Origin: Candidatus Cloacimonadales bacterium
GTDB taxonomy: Bacteria; Cloacimonadota; Cloacimonadia; Cloacimonadales; DAONDQ01
NCBI GenBank assembly: GCA_963662275.1
Contig: OY759316.1
Coordinates: forward strand, 2,080,001-2,144,000
DNA: 64,000 bases
Reading direction: 5' to 3'
Program-made: the position numbers and the translations under genes
The notes under the pieces: model-generated
Database searches by the model: none
Told to the model about the DNA's origin: nothing
What the model saw: the letters and a program-made list of their open reading frames with translations, nothing else
Shown: in pieces, positions 23,240-33,254 of the stretch
Position numbering within the stretch: position 1 is the stretch's first letter
How the letters are laid out: each line of letters opens with the position of its first letter

Positions 23240-25122
23240 ATTAGTCTTTTAAAACGCTTTTCCAACTCATTCAAAGACATTCGTATCATCAATGGTCTGC
23301 CATGTGGACAAAAATATGGAACTTGGCAAGCAAAGAGGTCATTGATGAGTACAAGCATTTCCTTACGACTCAGCTTCTTACCGGCTTTAATTGCAGCCTT
23401 GCAGGCAACGGATTTAGAAATACTGTCACGGAAATCCTCCGTGGTTTCATATTCTGATTCAAACTGCTTTAAGATCTCAATAAACAGCTCTCCCCCTTCC
23501 CAATCTTCAATTTCTATGGGGATTTCCTCAATCACAACCGAGTTACCGCTAAATGATTTAATGGAGAAACCTACTTTATAAAATGCTTCAAGATTTTGTT
23601 CTATCTGCTCCATTACCAATGAACTAATGTAAGGAGGAATATCCACAACGATGGGAAATAATAGTTTTTGAGTTTCTGCTGCCAAACCGTGCAGACGATG
23701 TATGATCTTTTCGTAGATTATTCTTTCATGGGCAGCATGTTGGTCAATAATCATTAAACCATCTTCCACCTGGATAAATATATAGGACTGATGCAGTTGC
23801 CACGGATTCACTAAATCTTCTTCCGACGGTAAAAAGAATGAAATATCCTGCTGGTCAGGAACAACTTTATGCGCCTCTTCCCCACCTTTTAACACTGGAC
23901 GCTGGGTAAATAAATCCGGCTGCTGATAAAGCTCTCCGAAAGGTTTCCGGTAGCTTGTAAATCTTGGTTCACTATTCCCGTTTGAATTTCGAAGTCCGAA
24001 GTTCGAAGTTCGAACATCGGAATCGTTTTCACTACGCAGTGGAATGTTATTTATAACATTTTCTGAATTCTTCTCTTCTCCGCTCGCACTTCGATTGAAT
24101 CGTTTCTCTTCATAATCCAGCAAAGCATTTGTGATCGTATTCGTCACAAATCCAAACACAAGCTGTGTATCTCTGAACCTGACTTCTGATTTTGCAGGAT
24201 GCACATTAATATCTATCAATTCGGGATTAATATTCAAAAACAAAATATACGGAGGCAGGTTCCCCTGGTTGTAAGAGCGGTTCTTTTTCAGGAATGGTTC
24301 ATACGCTGAACGAATACTATGCTGAACGATTTTATCAGTGATATAGCGTCCGTTAATGAACAGATAGCGATAGTCGGCATAACTGCTTTTCTCTTCTTCC
24401 AGTCCACCGATATAGCCTTCCATTTGAATCGCTGATTGCTGATGATTTATTCTGATCCAATCCGCATCCAGGAAAGGTGTACCGAAGACAGCCTGCATGC
24501 GTGCATCACGTGAATCTGTTTGCGGATAATGAAGCCGTTCCTTGCCATCTACGACAAAACGAAAAGCAATATTTGGGAATAATATCGCCTGATAATGTAG
24601 GTAGTTCATGATATGCTTGAGTTCAACCTGGTCAGTTTTAAGGAACTTTCGACGCGCCGGTACTTGGCTGAATATCTTACGAACCTGTATGGTAGTGCCA
24701 ACATTAGCTGCAGTTTTTGAGACATTATTGAGCTGTCCATCCCAGAAATCTACTTGAGAGGCAAGCTCTGAGTCAGCTTCCCGGGTAATGAGAGTCAGCT
24801 TACTGACAGAAGCAATGGAAGGCAATGCTTCACCCCGAAAACCGAGAGTGGAAATGGCTATGATGTCATCCACTGTACGAATCTTGGAAGTGCCATGGCG
24901 TTCAAAAGCAGTCAACGCATCATCGGGACTCATCCCGGAACCGTTATCAATGACCTGGATCAGGTCTTTACCACCATTCTCAACAGTAATGGAAATGGAA
25001 TCTGCACCGGCATCAATAGAATTCTCAACCAGTTCCTTCACTACTGAAGCCGGACGTTCTATAACTTCACCGGCAGCGATCCTGTTCGCAACTTCTTCTG
25101 CCAGTACTTTAATTTTATTCAT
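23236..25122 (-). CDS. mutL: DNA mismatch repair endonuclease MutL
   Basis: IAAGEVIERPASVVKELVENS, GFRGEAL, DQHAAHERIIYE, ACK, CPHGRP. Confidence 0.98.
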   Translation of the reverse strand: MNKIKVLAEEVANRIAAGEVIERPASVVKELVENSIDAGADSISITVENGGKDLIQVIDNGSGMSPDDALTAFERHGTSKIRTVDDIIAISTLGFRGEALPSIASVSKLTLITREADSELASQVDFWDGQLNNVSKTAANVGTTIQVRKIFSQVPARRKFLKTDQVELKHIMNYLHYQAILFPNIAFRFVVDGKERLHYPQTDSRDARMQAVFGTPFLDADWIRINHQQSAIQMEGYIGGLEEEKSSYADYRYLFINGRYITDKIVQHSIRSAYEPFLKKNRSYNQGNLPPYILFLNINPELIDINVHPAKSEVRFRDTQLVFGFVTNTITNALLDYEEKRFNRSASGEEKNSENVINNIPLRSENDSDVRTSNFGLRNSNGNSEPRFTSYRKPFGELYQQPDLFTQRPVLKGGEEAHKVVPDQQDISFFLPSEEDLVNPWQLHQSYIFIQVEDGLMIIDQHAAHERIIYEKIIHRLHGLAAETQKLLFPIVVDIPPYISSLVMEQIEQNLEAFYKVGFSIKSFSGNSVVIEEIPIEIEDWEGGELFIEILKQFESEYETTEDFRDSISKSVACKAAIKAGKKLSRKEMLVLINDLFACQVPYFCPHGRPLMIRMSLNELEKRFKRLI

Positions 25123-25149
25123 TCATTTCTCCAATAAGTTCTGCTCTGG

Positions 25150-25206
25150 TCTCCCTCCCATTTGTAAAGGGAGGGATTAAGGGAGAGCTAGTTCTGTTCT
25201 GCTCTG
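25150..25206. repeat. CCCTCCC-Nx-GGGAGGG REP-like palindrome, copy 2
   Basis: ctccctcccatttgtaaagggagggattaagggagagctagttctg. Confidence 0.8.
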
Positions 25207-25397
25207 CTCTTTTCTGCTCTGAGCTATTCCCTATTCCCAATTTACTATTCCCATCTGCTAAGTCTGACTTAGCCCCTTCTGCAACGTAAAATTGAAGAAG
25301 TAACTTTGATTGTCAATATAATTACCCCCCTACCTGAGGGGGGATTAAGGGGGGGCAACTTCTTCTCTGCCCATATTTCATTTCCCATTTCCCATTA

Positions 25398-25445
25398 TCC
25401 CAGAGGTTCCTCCTCTGGCTATCGGATTTCATACATCCGATATGT
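25398..25445. repeat. REP-like 48-bp repeat (CCAGAGG...CTGGCTATCGGATTTC family)
   Basis: 44/48 identical by eye to 59635-59682; related to the arms at 26601 and 26748. Confidence 0.85.
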
Positions 25446-25496
25446 TATGCCTCTGCCATTTTTTAATTTTTAACTTTTAATTCTCTTCCCTAATTC

Positions 25497-26363
25497 TTAA
25501 TTCTTAATTCCCTTGTATCCTCTCATGATAAACCCATACCCCACAAACAGTATCACTGCCAGTATCCCAAAGACGATAAGCTGAGGGAACTGAAATGTCG
25601 GATCATGCTTGAAGAACATCACCCAGCCCATGGCATTCACGGCAAGGATCTGAGTCAGAAAGAAACCATACAGCAGGTTTTGTATGGGAAAGGATGTCTC
25701 TCTCCGTGTCCAAAGCAGATACACACTGATGAATCCCAGGGGAATACAGAAGCCAAGATCAACCGCGCGGACAAGCCAGAAAGCTGTTGGAGCTTCCGCA
25801 TAACCATTTGAAGTACCAGTCTGCATCACTTCTATAATTCCTTTGATCCACATGGAAGCAAAGATCATTAGGAAAAGAGGAAACAAGACTGAATATACGA
25901 TCAAACCAGCCTTTTTGAAATGGCTGGAAACTTTCCCGGGAAACAATGAGAGCGAATAGAGTAGTAAGATCAAACCCGCAATGATGATATAGATGAAATG
26001 AAATGCAAATTTCTCACTATTCCCGGTATAGACTGCAGAACTCCACTCCCAGCCGATGCTATAGGATAACGCATAGTAGAATAGAAATAATGGTGATGCT
26101 GCCAGCAGATACTTGGCGATCTGTTTTCTCAGGAGCAGGCAGATACCGCCTATGATCAATATTGGACACATCACGACCAGGTTGATGATATCCTGCCCGA
26201 TCAATTGATTATTTACCGTGATGTGTGTTTTGTATTGTATGATATTCATATACAAGGGACCTAAGATTGCCAAATATGCCAGTAAAATACCCGTTACAAT
26301 TGCTAACAATGAAACGAAAATACGTTCAAAGGACGAACCAAAACCAGGTGATGCACTATCCAT
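25497..26363 (-). CDS. Hypothetical polytopic membrane protein
   Basis: About 8 hydrophobic segments; GAGG RBS upstream. Confidence 0.75.
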   Translation of the reverse strand: MDSASPGFGSSFERIFVSLLAIVTGILLAYLAILGPLYMNIIQYKTHITVNNQLIGQDIINLVVMCPILIIGGICLLLRKQIAKYLLAASPLFLFYYALSYSIGWEWSSAVYTGNSEKFAFHFIYIIIAGLILLLYSLSLFPGKVSSHFKKAGLIVYSVLFPLFLMIFASMWIKGIIEVMQTGTSNGYAEAPTAFWLVRAVDLGFCIPLGFISVYLLWTRRETSFPIQNLLYGFFLTQILAVNAMGWVMFFKHDPTFQFPQLIVFGILAVILFVGYGFIMRGYKGIKN

Positions 26364-26447
26364 ACAATACCTCTAAGCTAAAATTTCTTTATGCACAACA
26401 AATTATGAAAGTAATTATTTGAAGTCAATAAATTGATAAAATGTCTT

Positions 26448-26503
26448 TCCCTCCCATTTGCAAAGGGAGGGTGGCTTTAGCCGGGAGAGCTAGTTCTTCT
26501 CTG
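26448..26503. repeat. CCCTCCC-Nx-GGGAGGG REP-like palindrome, copy 3
   Basis: tccctcccatttgcaaagggaggg...gggagagctagttct. Confidence 0.8.
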
Positions 26504-26600
26504 CTCCGCTATGTTCTTCTCTACATCCGACTGGCATCTATTGATTAAAAAGAGCAGCCCCTAAGACCTGATAAACCAGGCTTTCATTCTCAATCTCATA

Positions 26601-26787
26601 GAGATGAAATCCAATAGCCAGTGGCGTAAGCCTCTGGGATCGATGGGAAATGAGACAATAATATCAATTACACCAAACCCCTCTTACCAATTTTGCGTGT
26701 TAAATTGGTATGAGGGGTTTGGTGGTTAAAAAACTCGTGATTTATCATACCTGAGGCTTACGCCACAGGCTATCGGATTTTACATCT
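26601..26787. mobile_element. MITE/REPIN-like element: ~38-bp terminal inverted arms with a central hairpin
   Basis: GAGATGAAATCCAATAGCCAGTGGCGTAAGCCTC pairs with GAGGCTTACGCCACAGGCTATCGGATTTTACATCTC; inner CACCAAACCCCTC...GAGGGGTTTGGTG. Confidence 0.65.
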
Positions 26788-27046
26788 CCGATGTTGTACA
26801 AGATTCCAAAATAATGAGCAGCCCACAAGACCTGCATATTTACAATATGCTTATGGCTATACCAAGGTTTCCTTAGGATTTACTTACTCACATCGTTAAA
26901 GTGAATCTTAGAAGTAAACTCTTGGGAACCACTTTGTCAGCTTGTTTGTTTATTGAGTTATTTTATATTATGTATAGATTTTATAGCGTGCTTATAGCTT
27001 CCACAGAAAGCTTAAAAAAAGCAAAAATCAAAAGCCAAACCCCAAA

Positions 27047-27907
27047 TCATTTAGACCTAAACAAACGGAACCCGAAGATAGTGCCCCCATAGTCGGGACT
27101 ACCGGAGTCGCAGTAGGAAACACGGCAACTGAGGGCGACGGTGTACCACGAACCACCCCGCAACAGTCGACACAAGCCAGCATCTGCACCCTTCGGATCG
27201 GAAACAGTTCTCTTTCTGTCACAGTTTAAACTATACCAGTCCCAACACCATTCCCAGACATTTCCACTCATATCATATAATCCAAGTTCATTCGCCTGCT
27301 TCTGACCAACCTGGTGAGTTGTGCTTGAGGAATTGTCAGCAAACCACGCAACACTGCCCAGATCATTGCTTCCAGCATATGTATACCCTTTGCTCTTGTT
27401 ACCACCTTTGGCAGCAAATTCCCATTCTGCTTCAGTAGGAAGTCTAAAACCATTTGCGCTCCAATCACAGGCGATGTTTTCACCGCATCCGCTATAACAG
27501 GGTGTCAACCCTTCTATTTGACTCAGCTTGTTGCAAAATTCCACACAGTCATGCCAAGATACGGTCTCTACTGGAAGGTTATCACCTTTGAAATAGGATG
27601 GGTTATTGTCCATCACTTCATGCCACTGCTTTTGAGTTACTTGGTATTTGCTGACATAAAAAGAAGAGAGAGTAACCTGATGAGTAGGCTTTTCACTGTA
27701 TGGTCCCCCACCGGTAGTATCGCCCATAGTGAAAGACCTGCCTTCAACAAAAACCATATTCTCATTCAACTTTTGCGATTGATCTAAATCTTCATTGCTA
27801 ATTATTTTTGGTGCAGTAGGATGCGGTTTATTCTTTTCTCGCTTTTTACCGCACTTTGTACATTTGTTTCCATTCCATTTATGACCAAAAAAGCATGAAA
27901 ATCCCAT
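27047..27907 (-). CDS. Formylglycine-generating enzyme (FGE/SUMF1) family CLec-fold protein; candidate DGR target
   Basis: FTMG, YQVTQ, PVETVSW, RLPTEAEWEFAA, GLYDMSGNVWEWC, RGGSW...GFR; N-terminal CxxxGHKW...CxxCG motif. Confidence 0.9.
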   Translation of the reverse strand: MGFSCFFGHKWNGNKCTKCGKKREKNKPHPTAPKIISNEDLDQSQKLNENMVFVEGRSFTMGDTTGGGPYSEKPTHQVTLSSFYVSKYQVTQKQWHEVMDNNPSYFKGDNLPVETVSWHDCVEFCNKLSQIEGLTPCYSGCGENIACDWSANGFRLPTEAEWEFAAKGGNKSKGYTYAGSNDLGSVAWFADNSSSTTHQVGQKQANELGLYDMSGNVWEWCWDWYSLNCDRKRTVSDPKGADAGLCRLLRGGSWYTVALSCRVSYCDSGSPDYGGTIFGFRLFRSK

Positions 27908-27925
27908 AATAATATATCCTTCTTA

Positions 27926-28998
27926 CTACAATTCTACATCTGTCTCTATCTTCAGCTCTTTATCACCTTCATATCCAGCAAACTTCATCATATTCTTACA
28001 ATGTCCAACAATCGCATCAGCAGAGCGATTGCCTTCAGTGAACCAACTATTGTCTAGTTTAATTGCTTCATGGAATTCATCTCTATCCTTCGAAACCCTG
28101 TAAACTCCTTCAATAGCCAAATTGGCTTTGATCTTGATCAAATGGTTATACGTGACAATCTTCACATCTCTCCAAGTATTTACATTATACCAGGTATCAA
28201 TTACAAAGACTCTTTTTGGCATATTACCGCGATATAATGATGGTTTGAGTATTGACGTAGTTTTCTTAACGGGTTTAGGATTGGGAGTATCAATCACAAT
28301 TACTGGTTCAATAGGTACGAGTTTCTTCTCCCACAATCTCTTTATCTCTTCTAATGAAATCTCATGCCCACGTTCTTTCAGAATGAATTGCACAAGCTGA
28401 TAGTTATTCAGTTCAGGAAACTCACTGGTTTTATCTTTGGCATCATGTTTGGCTATTTCAATTTCCTTACTGAGTTTGAGATCATTGAGCATCTTCTCAG
28501 CGGTATTCACAGCATCTTTGACAAACCGATTCTTTGAAAGCACCTCAGTAAGAATAGAAACGATGTAATCTATATTATCTTCAATCAAATCAAAGGTGCA
28601 GAAAAGCTTCTGAGCAAATGTACCGGTAGCAGATGATAGATAGAACCGCCAGATCTTTCCATCTGTTAGTATGGTGATGGAGGCTGTATTAAAGAAATTA
28701 TAATCCTGTAATTGATCTTCAGAACTTTCGATGTTGCCTCTCATTTTACCAACAGCTTTCACTTCAAAGAATACACCGGTGTTTTCTCTTTCATCAGACT
28801 ATGAAACAGAACGACATCCACACTCCCTTCTTTGGTTTTCAGCTTAATCGGATATTCGGTATAAAACTCTTCCGGATTCCAGATATCCCAACCCAATTCC
28901 TGGCAGATACGGGCAACGATTCCCAAACGGACATGTTCTTCTTTGGTGTAGGAGTGGTTTTCTAACTTCTTTTTAATATCTTCAATTACTTTAATCAT
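27926..28998 (-). pseudogene. Frameshifted HsdR_N-like PD-(D/E)xK restriction endonuclease-like gene
   Basis: ORF1 (LGWDIWNP, EY, VDVVL) ends at 28759; the shifted frame continues VFFEVKAVG...ILTDGKIWRFY; apparent 1-nt loss near 28778. Confidence 0.75.
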
Positions 28999-29057
28999 GA
29001 TAAACCTCTCAACCTTATTTATTGAATGTAATTTTCTTTGGCAAGGAAAAAGTCAGT

Positions 29058-29177
29058 GAATTAAGAATTAACAATTCGACTTCGCTCAATGAGAAATTAA
29101 AAAGTTAAGAATTATCAGAAAGAGATGTGCAGAATTTAAGATTTAAGATTTAAGATTGAAGATTGAAAAGATTGGAA
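29058..29177. repeat. Heptamer arrays (AATTAAG/ATTTAAG family)
   Basis: aattaag aattaac; atttaag x3 followed by attgaag-type units. Confidence 0.8.
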
Positions 29178-29577
29178 GAGCATAACTAAGGGAACGCCGA
29201 ATTGCTTTCGGTGGTTGTTGCATTGTTTGCAACGTCTTCTTTTTCATATTACTTTAGACTGCATGTTCATTTCCTATGGCTTAGTTCTGCAGTTATTTGT
29301 GGAACTATGTCTTATCGATTTCCATTTAAAAATGCATAGCCGTTTCAAAACAGCGTTCCGAGATTGCAACACGGTTTGTAACGCGTTATTCATAAGGTGT
29401 ACCGCTATATTTATATAGCATCGTGTCTGGTTCTGTGACATAAGATTGTATCTTGTTGAACGAAGCTGCAAGCAGCAGTACCGTTCGCAGTAAACTCGTG
29501 TTTCATGCATTTAAACTATTGATATACTGAACCCTCACTAAAAGCATACTTACCCCCAAAATTAACTGGAGGTAAGT

Positions 29578-30450
29578 ATGGAATCATACGAAGTTCGCTT
29601 TTTAGAGTGCCTTGATCTTCGAGGCGTGTCCCGAGAGACAAAATACAATTACATCAGACAAGTCACTTCTTTAGCATCATATTATGGTCAAGACCCCGGC
29701 ACACTATCTATTGAACAGGTAAGAACATATTTTGTCTACCTGCATAACGTCAAGAATTATAGTCCTCAGAGTTTAAAATCAGCCTATTATGGCATCAGAT
29801 TTTTTTTCATCCATGTTGTTGGTTTCAGGCAAGAGGATTTTACCTTTTTTAAGGCAAAGATTGAGCACAAACTTCCTGTGATTCTGACCACAGACGAAGT
29901 TAGAATGCTTATCTCCCGCATTCATACTTATGATTATCGACTCTTACTGACTCTTACCTATCAATGCGGATTAAGGATTTCGGAAGCAGTCAAGATTAAA
30001 ATAGCCGATATCAACCGGGAATTGATGACCATCACGGTAAGGCAATCCAAAGGCAACAAAGACAGGTCAATACCTCTGCCTGAAAAATTGTATCAGGAAC
30101 TCCGGGAATATTGGAAAACCCATCAGAACAGACAGCTTTTATTCCCGAGCAGAAGCACCAGACAGGCTGATATTAACAGAATGACAACCTCGAACCAGAT
30201 TTCTGTCCAAACTCTTCGGTCAGCTCTGAAGTCAGCCTTAAAGGAGACACGCATCCCTAAGCATGTAACCTGTCATACACTCAGACATTCTTATGCCACA
30301 CATTTATTGGAAGCAGGTGTCAGTATCATCATCATCAAAGACTTGCTCGGGCACGAAAGTCTTAGAGCGACCATGGTATACGTGCATTTGACTAACGTTT
30401 CCCGAGAGCAGTCATGTAAAATCATCAATGAACTGATGAATAAGATGTAA
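29578..30450 (+). CDS. Tyrosine recombinase/integrase with N-terminal SAM-like domain
   Basis: GLRISE, KGNKDR, HTLRHSYATHLLE, LLGH, TMVYVH; GGAGG RBS. Confidence 0.95.
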   Translation: MESYEVRFLECLDLRGVSRETKYNYIRQVTSLASYYGQDPGTLSIEQVRTYFVYLHNVKNYSPQSLKSAYYGIRFFFIHVVGFRQEDFTFFKAKIEHKLPVILTTDEVRMLISRIHTYDYRLLLTLTYQCGLRISEAVKIKIADINRELMTITVRQSKGNKDRSIPLPEKLYQELREYWKTHQNRQLLFPSRSTRQADINRMTTSNQISVQTLRSALKSALKETRIPKHVTCHTLRHSYATHLLEAGVSIIIIKDLLGHESLRATMVYVHLTNVSREQSCKIINELMNKM

Positions 30451-31593
30451 ATGGATTTTAGCAGGATTCTCAAAAACAACCTGTCCGAGTATCTGGAAAA
30501 ATATGGAAACCAGTCACCGGAAAGCCATTTAAGAGCGATCAGAGATATTCTCCTTTGCCGGACACCTGAACTGGGCGGAGAAGTCTATTTATGCCAGGAA
30601 TGTGCGGAACTGCATTATTCCTATCATTCCTGCAAAAACCGTCACTGCCCGAAGTGTGGCCGTAATGATTCAGCGAAATGGCTGGAAAAGCAGCTTGCCA
30701 AACTGCTGCCGGTTAAGTACTTCATGGTAACTTTCACCATACCCCGGGAACTGCACAAAACATGCCTGTCAAATCAGAAACTGCTTTATGATCTTCAGTT
30801 CAAAGCATCATCTGAAGCCTTAAAGACATTGCTTTCAGATCCCAAATATGCCGGTGGCGTTTCAGGCTTTACCGGGGTACTTCATACCTGGACAAGGCAG
30901 CTTGAATATCATCCTCATATTCATTATATAGTCCCCGGCGGAGCTTGGAATAAAGAACGAAAGGAATGGCAAAAAGCAGGCAATAAGTTCCTGATTCCGG
31001 TCAAAGCTCTTTCGGTGATTTACCGGGCAAAATTCCGTGATTTGCTTCGACTGGAAAATCAGCATCTGTTTGGTCGGATATCCCCGCTAGTCTGGCAGCA
31101 AAAAGAGTTTGTCACAGACTCCCGACCCGTCGGAAAAGGTCGGGAGGCTCTGACTTATTTGGCCAATTATGTGTATCGGACCGCCATCACCAACAATCGC
31201 ATCCTTTGGGAAAAGGACGGGCTGGTAACCTTTAAATACAAGCCGGCAGGTTCAGCTAAATTCGCCTTTAAAAGCGTCGACTCCGTGGAGTTTATCAATA
31301 AGTTCCTGATGCATGTTCTGCCGCAGGGATTTCAGAAAATCAGATACTACGGATTTCTCAGTCCGGCGGCAAAATCTGTCTGGGAGATGGTCAACAGCTT
31401 TTTCCCAGCAAAGTCCGATTCTAATGACAAGAATCAGACAGCTAAAACTTTTGTAATTCCCAAATTTGAAAAAGACCTCTGCCCTAATTGCAAATCAAAG
31501 ATGACACAGCATGCTTCAATTACCGGAAAACCAAGATCACCGCCTTGGTCGCTGTTGTTTTTGGCAAATTGCTTTGATGGCGGTAAACTGTAA
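30451..31593 (+). CDS. IS91-family (Y2 HUH) transposase with N-terminal zinc-binding domain
   Basis: CRT..LGG..CxxC..HSCKNRHCPKC; HTW..HPHIH (HUH); YLANY (YxxxY); HVLPQGFQKIRYYG. Confidence 0.93.
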   Translation: MDFSRILKNNLSEYLEKYGNQSPESHLRAIRDILLCRTPELGGEVYLCQECAELHYSYHSCKNRHCPKCGRNDSAKWLEKQLAKLLPVKYFMVTFTIPRELHKTCLSNQKLLYDLQFKASSEALKTLLSDPKYAGGVSGFTGVLHTWTRQLEYHPHIHYIVPGGAWNKERKEWQKAGNKFLIPVKALSVIYRAKFRDLLRLENQHLFGRISPLVWQQKEFVTDSRPVGKGREALTYLANYVYRTAITNNRILWEKDGLVTFKYKPAGSAKFAFKSVDSVEFINKFLMHVLPQGFQKIRYYGFLSPAAKSVWEMVNSFFPAKSDSNDKNQTAKTFVIPKFEKDLCPNCKSKMTQHASITGKPRSPPWSLLFLANCFDGGKL

Positions 31594-32132
31594 GTTAATT
31601 TTACCGACGGGATTGTCTTGCCTAAATTATAGAAACAACCGAAATATTACAGGCAATTTGCTAAAATACTTGAAAACAATATCAGCCCATACACAAAAAG
31701 TCTGATCTCAAAGTGATTTGATAACTTCTGAAAAGAAAATCATCTCTTCCATTGGTAAAAGACTCTGCTAAAATTGTAAAAATCCAATTCAACCCAAGAA
31801 ATCTTCAAAAAGCAATTTCCAAATACATATTCAAAATCACCCTGCTACTTGAGCTTGTTCAACAGCATATCCAATCATGCCTATGATGGGAAATGCTTAT
31901 TATGTTATATCCTTAAGTTTGCAACTTGAGGGTCTTTTTGTCAGAGTTGAATGGTTTCAAACCCAACAACATAACAATTCACAAAATTATGGTTCGATTG
32001 TGAAATCACTAAATGCCGTTTACGTGATTATATTCACGTAATATGCCATTTATTACAAGTTTATATTCTTGTAATCGGCAGATATTCCTTGCCAGCTTTT
32101 GTTAAACCGCTTTTATCGGTTCAGGAGTAATC

Positions 32133-33254
32133 ATGATAAAAAGATACATTCTTAGTGACATTATCAATATGTCTTTTAAGCATAAGGCGATTATTATCCA
32201 TGGACCTCGTCAGAGTGGAAAGACCACTCTATTAAAGCAATTAGTGACAGAGTTCAATACGACAACCACCTACCTCAATTGTGACGATGCCAGGGACCTC
32301 CTGTTTTTCGAAAGCCAATCCACAACAGCACTCAAAGCAAACCTAGGTAATTCGAAACTTCTCATCATTGATGAAGCGCAAAGGATAAGCAATATTGGAA
32401 TATCGATTAAACTTATGGTCGATAATTTACCTGATGTCCAGATCATAGCTTCAGGTTCATCCTCTTTTGAATTGTCAAATTCAATCAAAGAACCTCTTAC
32501 AGGAAGAAAATTTGAATATAATCTCTTTCCCATCTCCTTTGCTGAAATGGCTGATTACACCAGCCTTTGGGAAGAACAGAAATTCTTAGACCATAGATTA
32601 GTATATGGAATGTATCCGGAAATCTTAACAAGTCACGGGACAGAGGAAAGATTATTAACTAGCTTGGCTGGCAGTTATTTATTCAAAGATATTTTTACAT
32701 TCCAAGACTTAAGAAAGCCTGAACTATTAGATAAGTTGATTAGGGCACTTGCCTTGCAAATAGGTAACGAAGTCTCATATACAGAACTGGCACAGCTTAC
32801 CGGTTCTGACCATAATACTGTTCAAAGGTACATCCAGCTTTTAGAGAATGCATATATCATATTCAGACTACCTAATTATAGCAGTAATTTGAGAAATGAG
32901 ATCAAACGAAGTCGCAAGATATACTTTTTTGATAATGGTATTCGAAATGCACTACTTAACGATTTCAGATCCCTTGAATTACGTGATGATATAGGCAAAC
33001 TCTGGGAAAATTACTGCGTCTCTGAAAGAAGGAAACACTTATCGAACAATCTCCTATCTCGCAACAGCTATTTCTGGCGTAATACAAACCAAAGTGAAAT
33101 TGACTATATCGAAATCTATGAGAATAAAATCAATGCATACGAGTTTAAATGGAATCCAAAAGCTAAAATTAGGATTTCAGCTTTCCAAAAAGTCTATCCG
33201 CAGGCTGAAATTGATCTTATTACACCCAATAATTACAGTAAATTTCTGACATAA
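32133..33254 (+). CDS. AAA+ ATPase, AAA_14/DUF4143 family
   Basis: GPRQSGKTT, IIDEAQ, SGSS, LTGR, KIYFFDNG, EIDY..EFK. Confidence 0.9.
   Translation: MIKRYILSDIINMSFKHKAIIIHGPRQSGKTTLLKQLVTEFNTTTTYLNCDDARDLLFFESQSTTALKANLGNSKLLIIDEAQRISNIGISIKLMVDNLPDVQIIASGSSSFELSNSIKEPLTGRKFEYNLFPISFAEMADYTSLWEEQKFLDHRLVYGMYPEILTSHGTEERLLTSLAGSYLFKDIFTFQDLRKPELLDKLIRALALQIGNEVSYTELAQLTGSDHNTVQRYIQLLENAYIIFRLPNYSSNLRNEIKRSRKIYFFDNGIRNALLNDFRSLELRDDIGKLWENYCVSERRKHLSNNLLSRNSYFWRNTNQSEIDYIEIYENKINAYEFKWNPKAKIRISAFQKVYPQAEIDLITPNNYSKFLT

What the first reader, a model, noticed from the sequence alone, without database searches (positions are those of the whole stretch)
27047..27185. Orphan DGR-like variable region at the 3' end of an FGE/CLec-fold gene
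Seen: over 27061-27180 the coding strand has only 11 A in 120 nt and about 59% GC (hand count), unlike the A-rich rest of the gene. Between RGGSW and GFR the codons are almost all NNC/NNT (tac acc gtc gcc ctc agt tgc cgt gtt tcc tac tgc gac tcc ggt agt ccc gac tat ggg ggc act atc ttc). Ten of the 11 A's sit at codon positions 1-2. Known: DGR adenine mutagenesis turns AAC/AAT template codons into NNC/NNT, and FGE-type CLec folds are classic DGR targets. Inference: replacing variable positions with A nearly rebuilds a WNNNANNCRVSN.NNNNPDNRNNNIGFR-type template. No template repeat, RT or avd is in the window, so this would be a remote or orphaned target. Its N-terminus is a small CxxxGHKW-CxxC zinc-like module rather than a signal peptide.
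Basis: partly seen in the sequence, partly recalled or inferred. Interest (0 to 1): 0.78.

Follow-up and report, generated by a model that had tools for sequence, protein, structure and literature searches.

The report
Fossil DGR variable region, retroelement gone
The end of this lectin-like gene still carries the codon pattern left by a diversity-generating retroelement, but the genome no longer holds the reverse transcriptase or template, so the once hypervariable binding site now appears frozen.

Summary
Window 27061-27180 (coding strand) has 11 A in 120 nt and 59.2% GC, and 10 of the 11 A are at codon positions 1-2.

The gene (27047-27907, minus strand, 286 aa) is an FGE-sulfatase/C-type-lectin-fold protein. 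Its closest solved relative is the Treponema DGR variable protein TvpA.

In the 25 codons between RGGSW and GFR, 16 end in C. Genome codon usage predicts 5.5 for the same residues (p about 1e-5).

The block aligns without gaps to 20 real template repeats from DGR cassettes of the same order. All 15 template AAY codons are NNY here, and the template-A sites look randomised.

The single-contig genome (99.97% complete) has no DGR reverse transcriptase and no template repeat.

Best reading: an orphaned, no longer diversified DGR variable region. It is one of nine equally clean tails among 46 paralogues. Two other tails differ from a relative's template at only 3-4 non-adenine sites.

The kind is known; the DGR-less state is moderately interesting.

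The parts
27047..27907 (-). Gene for a 286-aa FGE-sulfatase / C-type-lectin-fold protein of the TvpA-like (DGR variable protein) kind. The ORF is intact.
   Evidence: ORF. PF03781 over residues 48-283, E 6e-52. The best solved relative is 2Y3C, Treponema denticola variable protein, E 1e-41; catalytic FGEs score about 1e-17. A GAAGGA Shine-Dalgarno-like motif lies about 10 nt before the ATG.
27065..27166 (-). A 102-nt block (residues 248-281, LLRGGSW...GFR) that aligns without gaps to DGR template repeats of the same order. This is the fossil variable region.
   Evidence: At 31 sites that are A in at least 80% of 20 templates, the target keeps A at 9 (T 9, A 9, G 9, C 4). At 61 non-A sites, 42 equal the template consensus. 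The best single template is L120, with 14 non-A and 26 A-site mismatches.
27074..27148 (-). Variable core of 25 codons (W YTVALS CRVS Y C DSGS PD YGGTIF). It is rich in NNC/NNT codons and poor in A.
   Evidence: Sixteen of 25 codons end in C against 5.5 expected, p about 1e-5; none ends in A. At the 15 template AAY codons, 15 of 15 end in a pyrimidine (10 C, 5 T), none encodes K/E/Q/M/W and none encodes Asn.
27042..27073 (-). The 3' end (GFRLFRSK, stop, and a few bases beyond). It is nearly identical to that of the closest paralogue, although the gene bodies are only about 80% identical. It is a possible remnant of the homing end (IMH-like), but this was not shown.
   Evidence: Alignments. GGGTTCCGTTTGTTTAGGkCTAAATGATTkGG is shared with G000:1212100-1212135.
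26996..27012 (-). Weak 6-bp hairpin about 35 nt after the stop codon, at the place where active DGR loci of relatives carry a G+C-rich hairpin. Inconclusive.
   Evidence: The 116-nt fold scores -9.1 kcal/mol, z -1.1, and 29 of 200 shuffles fold as well. The relatives' loci L092 and L090 show 6-bp G+C-rich stems in the same call.
27848..27895 (-). N-terminal Cys/His motif (C5, H9, C16, C19: CFFGHKWNGNKCTKCG), followed by a lysine-rich linker. It stands where relatives have a signal or lipoprotein peptide.
   Evidence: Sequence. The motif occurs in this genome only at this gene plus one chance hit. This DNA is unique in the genome. There is no Pfam match at E up to 10, and the atlas best score is 0.79, a lead only. 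The paralogue and 5 of the 8 homologues read start with hydrophobic signal-like peptides.

Best explanation
The last roughly 100 nt of this TvpA-like lectin-fold gene are a former DGR variable region.

Inferred history: a DGR once copied an AAC-rich template repeat into this position through an adenine-error-prone reverse transcriptase. That turned template AAY codons into NNY codons and created a ligand-binding surface.

Shown here: the reverse transcriptase and the template are not in this chromosome now. The region is therefore no longer rewritten and evolves as ordinary DNA.

Inferred present function: the protein is a frozen-specificity binding protein. It has also lost the export signal that its relatives carry, and it sits in a small islet of mobile-element genes. 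It may be on the way to decay, like its frameshifted closest paralogue.

It is one of at least nine such clean fossil tails in a family of 46 FGE-domain tails in this genome.

It is not resolved whether the diversification happened in an ancestor of this lineage or in a donor before the gene was transferred.
For: 1. Codon signature independent of amino acids: 16 of 25 C-ending codons against 5.5 expected (p about 1e-5), and no A-ending codon. The body of the same gene shows no excess (40 of 185 against 33.4 expected, p 0.11).

2. The bias is to C and T, not to G: 2 of 25 codons end in G. This fits AAC/AAT templates and does not fit a general G+C enrichment.

3. Real DGRs exist in the same order.
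   - A template-like query hits 48 of 203 genomes.
   - Seventeen of 20 fetched template loci have a DGR-type reverse transcriptase ORF beside the template.
   - Four loci show target, accessory gene, reverse transcriptase and template cassettes.
   - All 20 templates align to the target block without gaps.

4. At template-A sites the target is randomised (A kept at 9 of 31). At non-A sites 42 of 61 agree with the template consensus. All 15 of 15 template AAY codons are NNY, with no residue that NNY cannot encode.

5. Against the closest paralogue, tail differences fall at codon positions 1/2/3 as 32/29/24%. In the body they fall as 13/13/38% (Fisher p 0.003).

6. No DGR machinery is in the genome.
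   - PF00078 finds 18 reverse transcriptase loci.
   - One representative of each of the four length classes that make up 17 of them has a group II intron maturase domain. The 18th is a Cas6-RT-Cas1 fusion.
   - A profile of four relatives' DGR reverse transcriptases finds the same 18 loci and nothing else at E up to 1.
   - Adenine-tolerant scans of both strands, for the target and for all 46 tails, find only other tails.
   - The 20 relatives' templates hit only gene tails with 10-24% A.

7. Calibration of the mismatch measure.
   - Active loci L090 and L091 have 0 non-A mismatches between variable region and their own template.
   - An RT-less locus (L086) has 3.
   - Two paralogue tails of this genome have 3 and 4 against that same template type.
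   So DGR-made tails without a DGR do exist in this genome.

8. Contigs of runs X1 and X3 cover the region with 0 differences. A contig of X4 covers it with no difference listed inside it.
Against: No template matching this particular variable region was found. The best of 58 relatives' loci has 14 non-A mismatches in 102. A pattern scan of public genomes, metagenomes and viral contigs gave only unrelated lineages.

A-poor, C3-rich tails form a continuum across the 46 paralogues. Even the least biased tails have 9-13 of 15 pyrimidine-ending codons at these positions, with one at 5 of 15. Part of the signal may therefore be a family property.

The template consensus comes from other families of the order. 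The only same-genus genome has no template and no reverse transcriptase either, so a DGR in this lineage's own past is not shown.

The assembly is one chromosome. A plasmid or phage of the same cell would not be in it. Contigs drop rare variants, and run X5 does not cover the region.

The downstream hairpin is not significant.
Confidence: 0.75

Rival explanations
1. The region is still an active DGR target. It would be served in trans by a reverse transcriptase and template carried on an extrachromosomal element (plasmid or phage) that is not part of this one-contig assembly.
For: DGRs can act on targets more than 100 kb away, and avd, TR and brt work in trans from a plasmid (passages of PMC5758913 read). 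Nine tails in this genome are clean, and two lie within 3-4 non-A mismatches of a template type that is identical in genomes of two other genera (L083 and L086). The assembly holds only the chromosome.
Against: There is no template and no DGR reverse transcriptase in the 99.97%-complete chromosome. The region is identical in contigs of three runs from two studies. The target is 14 or more non-A mismatches from every template sampled, whereas active pairs show 0. Its closest paralogue, with the same kind of tail, is frameshifted. According to the passages read, remote targets are reported for chromosomal DGRs, not phage-borne ones.
Confidence: 0.08
2. No DGR was ever involved. The A-poor, C-ending codons would reflect a property of this domain family, such as selection on the binding loop, gene conversion among paralogues, G+C-biased repair, or a patch acquired from a G+C-rich donor.
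For: The signal is graded across 46 paralogues and is not unique to this gene. Tails of most paralogues are richer in G+C than their bodies. Residues such as Y, S, G, D, N and T, which are common in binding sites, have pyrimidine-ending codons. No cognate template was found for this gene.
Against: The excess is synonymous-level, tested with the amino acids held fixed. It is specific to C/T, with only 2 of 25 G-ending codons; G+C-biased processes or a G+C-rich donor would raise G as well. It coincides codon for codon with the AAY codons of real templates of the same order. Sister tails in the same genome match a real template to within 3-4 non-A sites while differing at 16-22 A sites. The more strongly conserved WEWCWDWY region upstream shows no such bias.
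Confidence: 0.1
3. The gene is a fossil, but it was diversified elsewhere. It would have been rewritten by a DGR in another organism and arrived here by horizontal transfer without the cassette, so this lineage never lost a DGR.
For: The gene lies in a small islet with a phage-type integrase, an IS91-family Y2 transposase, a DUF4143 ATPase and a split HsdR_N-like gene, between housekeeping genes. No orthologue above 63% identity exists in 5.8 billion proteins, and the best same-genus match is 46%. The same-genus genome has no template or reverse transcriptase.
Against: The closest relative of the gene is a paralogue in the same genome: about 80% nucleotide identity in the body and 75% amino-acid identity over residues 50-215. 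That argues for duplication within the lineage. The genome holds 48 FGE-domain matches at all stages of decay, which fits long residence. This is a variant of the best explanation rather than a contradiction of it.
Confidence: 0.25

Closest known systems
TvpA, Treponema denticola variable protein (PDB 2Y3C), the FGE-type C-type-lectin-fold DGR target
   Same: It is the best solved relative by sequence, E 1e-41 over two stretches that include the C-terminal RGGSW...GFRL block. Both have the FGE-sulfatase domain with the variable residues in the last 30 or so residues before a short C-terminal stub.
   Different: TvpA belongs to a genome with a DGR that serves several remote targets (passage of PMC5758913). 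Here no reverse transcriptase or template exists in the genome. The target also lacks a signal peptide. No usable structure model was obtained (pLDDT under 50 over residues 175-277, series).
Canonical DGR cassettes of the same order (loci L089-L092: target, accessory gene, reverse transcriptase, template repeat)
   Same: Same target domain, same 102-nt register of the variable block, same short C-terminal stub after GFR, and the same NNY pattern at template AAY codons.
   Different: Those loci have a 344-361-aa reverse transcriptase with YxDD, an accessory gene (HRDC-like in L092) and a template with 0 non-A mismatches to the variable region where it can be compared without gaps (L090, L091). 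The window's gene has none of these partners.
Remote (non-adjacent) DGR targets as described by Wu et al. 2018 (PMC5758913, passages read)
   Same: The gene is a stand-alone short FGE-sulfatase-only target, far from any cassette.
   Different: Remote targets are defined by differing from a template in the same genome only at adenines. Here there is no template in the genome, so that definition is not met.
RT-less DGR remnant in a relative (L086, genome G118)
   Same: It is another example, in the same order, of a DGR-made tail that has lost its reverse transcriptase and begun to drift (3 non-A mismatches). No DGR-type reverse transcriptase is found in that genome.
   Different: L086 still keeps the template and the accessory gene next to the target. 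The window's gene keeps neither.

Membership tests
DGR variable region (current target of a diversity-generating retroelement) | A cognate template repeat in the same genome (or element) that differs from the variable region only at template adenines. | tested here: not met
   Adenine-tolerant scan of both strands of the 4.38-Mb genome. For the target, the best hit other than itself has 34 non-A mismatches in 137. For all 46 tails, only other tails are found. BLAST of 20 relatives' templates hits only gene tails.
DGR variable region (current target of a diversity-generating retroelement) | A DGR-type reverse transcriptase encoded in the genome. | tested here: not met
   PF00078 finds 18 loci. 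Seventeen fall into four length classes, and one representative of each class carries the GIIM maturase domain. One is Cas6-RT-Cas1. A profile of four relatives' DGR reverse transcriptases finds the same 18 loci and no other at E up to 1.
DGR variable region (current target of a diversity-generating retroelement) | An accessory gene (Avd or HRDC type) associated with the cassette. | tested here: not met
   PF05635 gives four full matches, at G000 1265377, 1305744, 4057914 and 4195650. None is near a reverse transcriptase locus or near the target. The family also has many non-DGR members (recalled).
DGR variable region (current target of a diversity-generating retroelement) | Variation within the population confined to template-adenine sites. 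| tested here: inconclusive
   Contigs of X1 and X3 are identical over the region. X4 shows no difference listed inside it. X5 does not cover it. Contigs cannot show rare variants, and no raw reads were available.
DGR variable region (current target of a diversity-generating retroelement) | Homing end (IMH) and a G+C-rich hairpin just downstream of the variable region. | tested here: inconclusive
   The 3' end is conserved with the paralogue, but without a template an IMH cannot be defined. Only a weak 6-bp hairpin is present, z -1.1.
Product of DGR mutagenic homing (past) | NNY codons at the positions that are AAY in templates, randomised bases at template-A sites, and a conserved scaffold at non-A sites. 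| tested here: met
   All 15 of 15 codons are NNY, with none encoding K/E/Q/M/W. A is kept at 9 of 31 A sites, against 42 of 61 matches at non-A sites. Sixteen of 25 codons end in C against 5.5 expected.
FGE-sulfatase / TvpA-like C-type-lectin fold (Pfam PF03781) | Domain match above the curated threshold, with the variable block at the C-terminal end of the domain. | tested here: met
   PF03781 scores 177 bits against a cut-off of 23.3, over residues 48-283. 2Y3C scores E 1e-41.
Catalytic formylglycine-generating enzyme | Equivalog-level similarity to characterised FGEs and their active-site cysteines. | tested here: not met
   No NCBIfam equivalog reaches its cut-off; the best is GldK at 91 bits against 350. 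Solved FGEs score only about 1e-17, below TvpA. Active-site residues were not examined individually.

The most novel reading that the evidence does not exclude
The chromosome's many clean variable tails (nine of 46, two within 3-4 non-adenine sites of a template type that is identical in genomes of other genera) are not fossils. They would be serviced from outside, by a mobile DGR (template plus reverse transcriptase on a phage or plasmid moving among genera of this order) that rewrites chromosomal lectin genes in trans and is absent from chromosome assemblies. That would make the diversifier a shared, transmissible tool rather than a resident of each genome.
Probability: 0.08. Interest if true: 0.85.

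Novelty: new member of a known kind. Interest (0 to 1): 0.45.

Why it matters
DGR surveys start from the reverse transcriptase, so they cannot see targets that have outlived their retroelement.

This case shows that such fossils can be recognised from sequence alone. The marks are a synonymous excess of NNC/NNT codons in register with template AAY codons, and divergence at codon positions 1-2 against a body that diverges at position 3.

It also shows that one genome can carry a whole series of them at different stages of decay. That series could be used to date DGR loss. It could also test the expectation that DGRs are lost when environments stop changing (bioRxiv 10.64898/2026.02.18.706561, passages read), and to study what happens to a hypervariable binding protein once its specificity is frozen.

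For annotation, these genes should not be called formylglycine-generating enzymes.

Tried and rejected
1. A pattern built from the adenine-free scaffold (TGCCGTRTTTCC...CCCGAC...GGNTTCCG) was scanned over three public collections.
   - Genome contigs: 5 loci. One is template-like (L052), two are Bacteroidales gene tails and two are chance matches.
   - Metagenome contigs: 5 loci, all DGR-style variable tails of other lineages.
   - Viral contigs: 0 loci.
   - None of the loci contained a matching template within the DNA held, and none belongs to the target's lineage.

2. A BLAST of the target's last 201 nt over 203 genomes of the order found only the paralogue in the target's own genome, plus short T-rich matches.

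3. Protein searches found no orthologue above 63% identity in 5.8 billion proteins or in 40 relatives. An orthologue-level comparison was therefore impossible, and the in-genome paralogue was used instead.

4. Sequencing runs are held only as contigs. Run X5 has no cover over 26700-27216. This is no evidence either way.

5. An AlphaFold2 model built from a 41-sequence alignment has mean pLDDT 60.6, and under 50 over 175-202, 214-220, 224-236 and 243-277, which covers the whole variable block. It was not used, and no fold search was run.

6. The N-terminal 48-51 residues gave no Pfam match at E up to 10. The atlas best score was 0.79, below the level where a hit means anything.

7. An Rfam scan of 24000-32000 gave only sub-threshold matches in the intergenic repeat.

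8. The earlier-findings look-up returned nothing.

9. One literature search was badly framed and returned irrelevant papers. Searches, with passages read, found remote targets, 'inactive' DGRs and predicted DGR loss. They did not find a description of DGR-less fossil variable regions recognised by codon signature. That is not proof that none is in print. Supplements were not read.

10. One search failed because a whole locus was given for translation. The ORF coordinates were then obtained with the ORF listing.

Full report
**What is there**

The finding lies at the 3' end of a 286-aa ORF on the minus strand (window 27047-27907). The protein has one Pfam domain, FGE-sulfatase (PF03781), over residues 48-283 at E 6e-52. 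By sequence, its closest solved relative is the Treponema denticola variable protein TvpA (2Y3C, E 1e-41). Catalytic formylglycine-generating enzymes follow at about 1e-17. No NCBIfam equivalog comes near its cut-off.

The window is part of a single-contig genome of 4.38 Mb, 39% G+C, rated 99.97% complete. Sources name the protein's database relatives mostly as Cloacimonadota/Cloacimonetes MAG proteins. I did not establish the organism further.

**The observation**

- Window 27061-27180 on the coding strand has 11 A of 120 and 59.2% G+C.
- Ten of the 11 A are at codon positions 1-2.
- The rest of the gene is 31.6% A and 42.2% G+C (profile).
- Only about 0.02% of 120-nt windows of the genome are this A-poor.

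The decisive check is at the synonymous level. For the same 25 amino acids between RGGSW and GFR, genome codon usage predicts 5.5 +/- 2.0 C-ending codons. Sixteen are seen (p about 1e-5), seven end in T, two in G and none in A. The body of the gene shows no such excess (40 of 185 against 33.4 expected, p 0.11). Genome-wide, 25-codon windows with 16 or more C-ending codons are 1.1e-4 of 1.17 million. Seven of the 17 frames that contain one are FGE-domain tails.

**Is there a DGR in this genome? No**

Reverse transcriptase:
- PF00078 finds 18 reverse transcriptase loci.
- Seventeen of them fall into four length classes. One representative of each class carries the group II intron maturase domain.
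- The 18th is a Cas6-RT-Cas1 fusion next to Cas2 and a RAMP protein.
- A profile built from four DGR reverse transcriptases of relatives finds the same 18 loci and nothing more at E up to 1.

Template repeat:
- An ungapped scan of both strands that forgives any mismatch where the genome has A finds no template for the target or for any of the 46 FGE-domain tails.
- BLAST of 20 relatives' templates against the genome hits only gene tails with 10-24% A.

Accessory gene:
- Four Avd-family (PF05635) genes exist. None is near a reverse transcriptase locus or near the target.

**Are there DGRs of this type nearby in evolution? Yes**

A scaffold pattern scan of public genomes returned a template-like sequence (L052). 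Used as a query, it hits 48 of 203 genomes of the same order. It does not hit this genome or the single other genome of its genus.

Four fetched loci show the canonical order of target with FGE tail, accessory gene, 344-361-aa reverse transcriptase with YxDD, and template. Seventeen of 20 template loci have a DGR-type reverse transcriptase ORF directly beside the template. Two of the other three are cut by a contig end, and one (L086) lacks it.

All 20 templates align to the target's block 27065-27166 without a gap.

**Fit of the target to these templates**

- At the 31 sites that are A in at least 80% of templates, the target keeps A at 9. The bases there are T 9, A 9, G 9 and C 4, close to random.
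- At the 61 sites that are almost never A, 42 agree with the consensus.
- At the 15 template AAY codons, the target has 15 pyrimidine-ending codons (10 C, 5 T). It has no Asn and no residue that NNY cannot encode.
- Against its closest paralogue (G000:1211337-1212185, about 80% nucleotide identity), body differences fall 13/13/38% on codon positions 1/2/3. In the 34-codon tail they fall 32/29/24% (Fisher p 0.003). The last 30 or so nucleotides, including the stop, are nearly identical.

**Limits of that fit**

No sampled template is the target's own. The best of 58 relatives' loci has 14 non-adenine mismatches in 102. Pattern and BLAST searches for the lineage found nothing closer.

The measure was calibrated as follows.
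- Active loci L090 and L091 have 0 non-A mismatches between variable region and their own template.
- L086, which has lost its reverse transcriptase, has 3. Its genome shows no DGR-type enzyme.

So the target either derives from an unsampled template type or has drifted for a considerable time.

**The wider picture in this genome**

The genome has 48 FGE-domain matches. Their tails form a gradient.
- Nine of 46 have 15 of 15 NNY codons and no incompatible residue. Others range down to 5 of 15.
- The number of C-ending codons falls as incompatible residues rise (Spearman -0.57).
- About 15 tails have a significant C3 excess.
- Two tails (G000:3951858-3952577 and 3646020-3646742) differ from a template type found in other genera (L083, identical in L086) at only 3 and 4 non-A sites, but at 22 and 16 A sites. 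A third has 8 non-A mismatches.

These are DGR products beyond reasonable doubt, in a genome without a DGR. That makes the same reading of the target credible even though its own template is missing. The target is thus an older or differently templated member of a series of fossils.

**State of the gene**

- The ORF is intact and has a plausible ribosome-binding site.
- It lacks the signal peptide that its paralogue and most homologues carry. It starts instead with a Cys/His motif (CFFGHKWNGNKCTKCG) and a lysine-rich linker. These are unique in the genome and match no family.
- It sits with a split HsdR_N-like gene, a phage-type integrase, an IS91-family transposase and a DUF4143 ATPase, between housekeeping genes.
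- Its closest paralogue has a 1-nt deletion that breaks the frame. The deletion is also present in contigs of three runs (table 4).
- Contigs of runs X1 and X3 reproduce the target's tail exactly. A contig of X4 covers it with no listed difference inside it.

**Mechanism**

Shown:
- the codon and site pattern;
- its register with real templates;
- the absence of template and reverse transcriptase in this chromosome;
- the existence of near-perfect DGR products elsewhere in the same genome.

Inferred:
- the tail was written by mutagenic retrohoming from an AAC-rich template;
- writing stopped when the cassette was lost, or was never transferred with the gene;
- the protein now has a fixed binding surface;
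- it may be decaying, since it has no export signal and lies in a mobile-element neighbourhood.

I put 0.75 on this reading. The rivals are 0.08 on continued diversification from an unassembled element and 0.10 on a non-DGR origin of the bias. The remainder is left open. Whether the diversification took place in this lineage or in a donor is unresolved; I give about 0.25 to the donor version.

**Comparison and novelty**

The gene is a TvpA-like DGR variable protein by domain and signature. It fails the tests for a current DGR target: no template, no reverse transcriptase and no accessory gene in context.

The literature I could search describes remote targets, inactive DGRs and predicted loss. 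These came from passages of PMC5758913, PMC8144416, PMC3575424 and bioRxiv 10.64898/2026.02.18.706561. I found no description of DGR-less fossil tails identified by codon signature in searches. That does not show none exists.

I rate it a new member of a known kind, with moderate interest (0.45).

Noticed in passing
G000:C1:3951858-3952577 (-), 3646020-3646742 (-), 4325712-4326434 (+); outside the window: Three other FGE-domain gene tails of this genome match a template repeat seen in other genera (L083, identical in L086). They have only 3, 4 and 8 non-adenine mismatches in 102 nt but 22, 16 and 20 adenine-site mismatches. They are near-fresh DGR products in a genome without a DGR.
   Followed up: partly
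G000:C1:1211337-1212185 (L051:8338-9186): The closest paralogue of the target has a signal peptide, a similar NNC-rich tail with one extra codon, and a 1-nt deletion after IYDM that breaks the frame. The deletion is also seen in contigs of three runs. It is a likely pseudogene.
   Followed up: yes
L086 (G118:C7:82552-85650): A relative's DGR locus has target, accessory gene and template, but no reverse transcriptase between accessory gene and template. No DGR-type enzyme is found in that genome, and its variable region has 3 non-adenine mismatches. It is an intermediate stage of DGR decay.
   Followed up: partly
G000:C1:3092721-3095408 (L063:4719-7400, -): An 893-aa Cas6-RT-Cas1 fusion lies next to Cas2 and a RAMP-family protein. 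This is a reverse-transcriptase-linked CRISPR adaptation module.
   Followed up: partly
G000, 17 loci listed (none in the window): Seventeen group II intron-type reverse transcriptase/maturase genes fall into four length classes. Several are identical copies, which indicates active or recently active introns.
   Followed up: partly
window 25140-25210 and 26445-26525: A repeat of about 55-75 nt with a G+C-rich hairpin (CCCTCCC...GGGAGGG) occurs in the intergenic regions flanking the membrane-protein gene. It has dozens of copies across the genome (72 and 24 BLAST hits for the two spacers).
   Followed up: partly
window 26592-26795: A long inverted repeat lies around a central hairpin. It gives weak, sub-threshold Rfam matches (Acido-Lenti-1 on both strands, 27-30 bits against a gathering score of 37). 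Contig depth is raised at 26747-26793, which suggests a repeated element.
   Followed up: no
window 27926-28998 (-), 29578-31593 (+), 32133-33254 (+): An islet of accessory genes sits next to the target. It holds two overlapping ORFs that look like one split gene with a weak HsdR_N-like start, a phage-type integrase directly followed by an IS91-family Y2 transposase with a zinc-binding domain, and an AAA/DUF4143 ATPase. Housekeeping genes flank it (mutL and miaA on one side, coaBC and queA on the other).
   Followed up: partly
G000:C1:2908068-2917550: One open frame of 3333 aa contains at least ten FGE-sulfatase domains in tandem. Most have decayed tails, but one (2913855-2914574) has a very A-poor tail.
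   Followed up: no
L099:7950-8010, L101:8450-8520, L051:9290-9340: A conserved palindromic element (…CATTGGTAATGTGTTGTAAC…) follows the stop codon of several FGE-domain genes at different places in the genome.
   Followed up: no
L092:5069-5641 (+): The accessory gene of one relative's DGR cassette matches the HRDC end of RecQ/RNase D rather than Avd.
   Followed up: no
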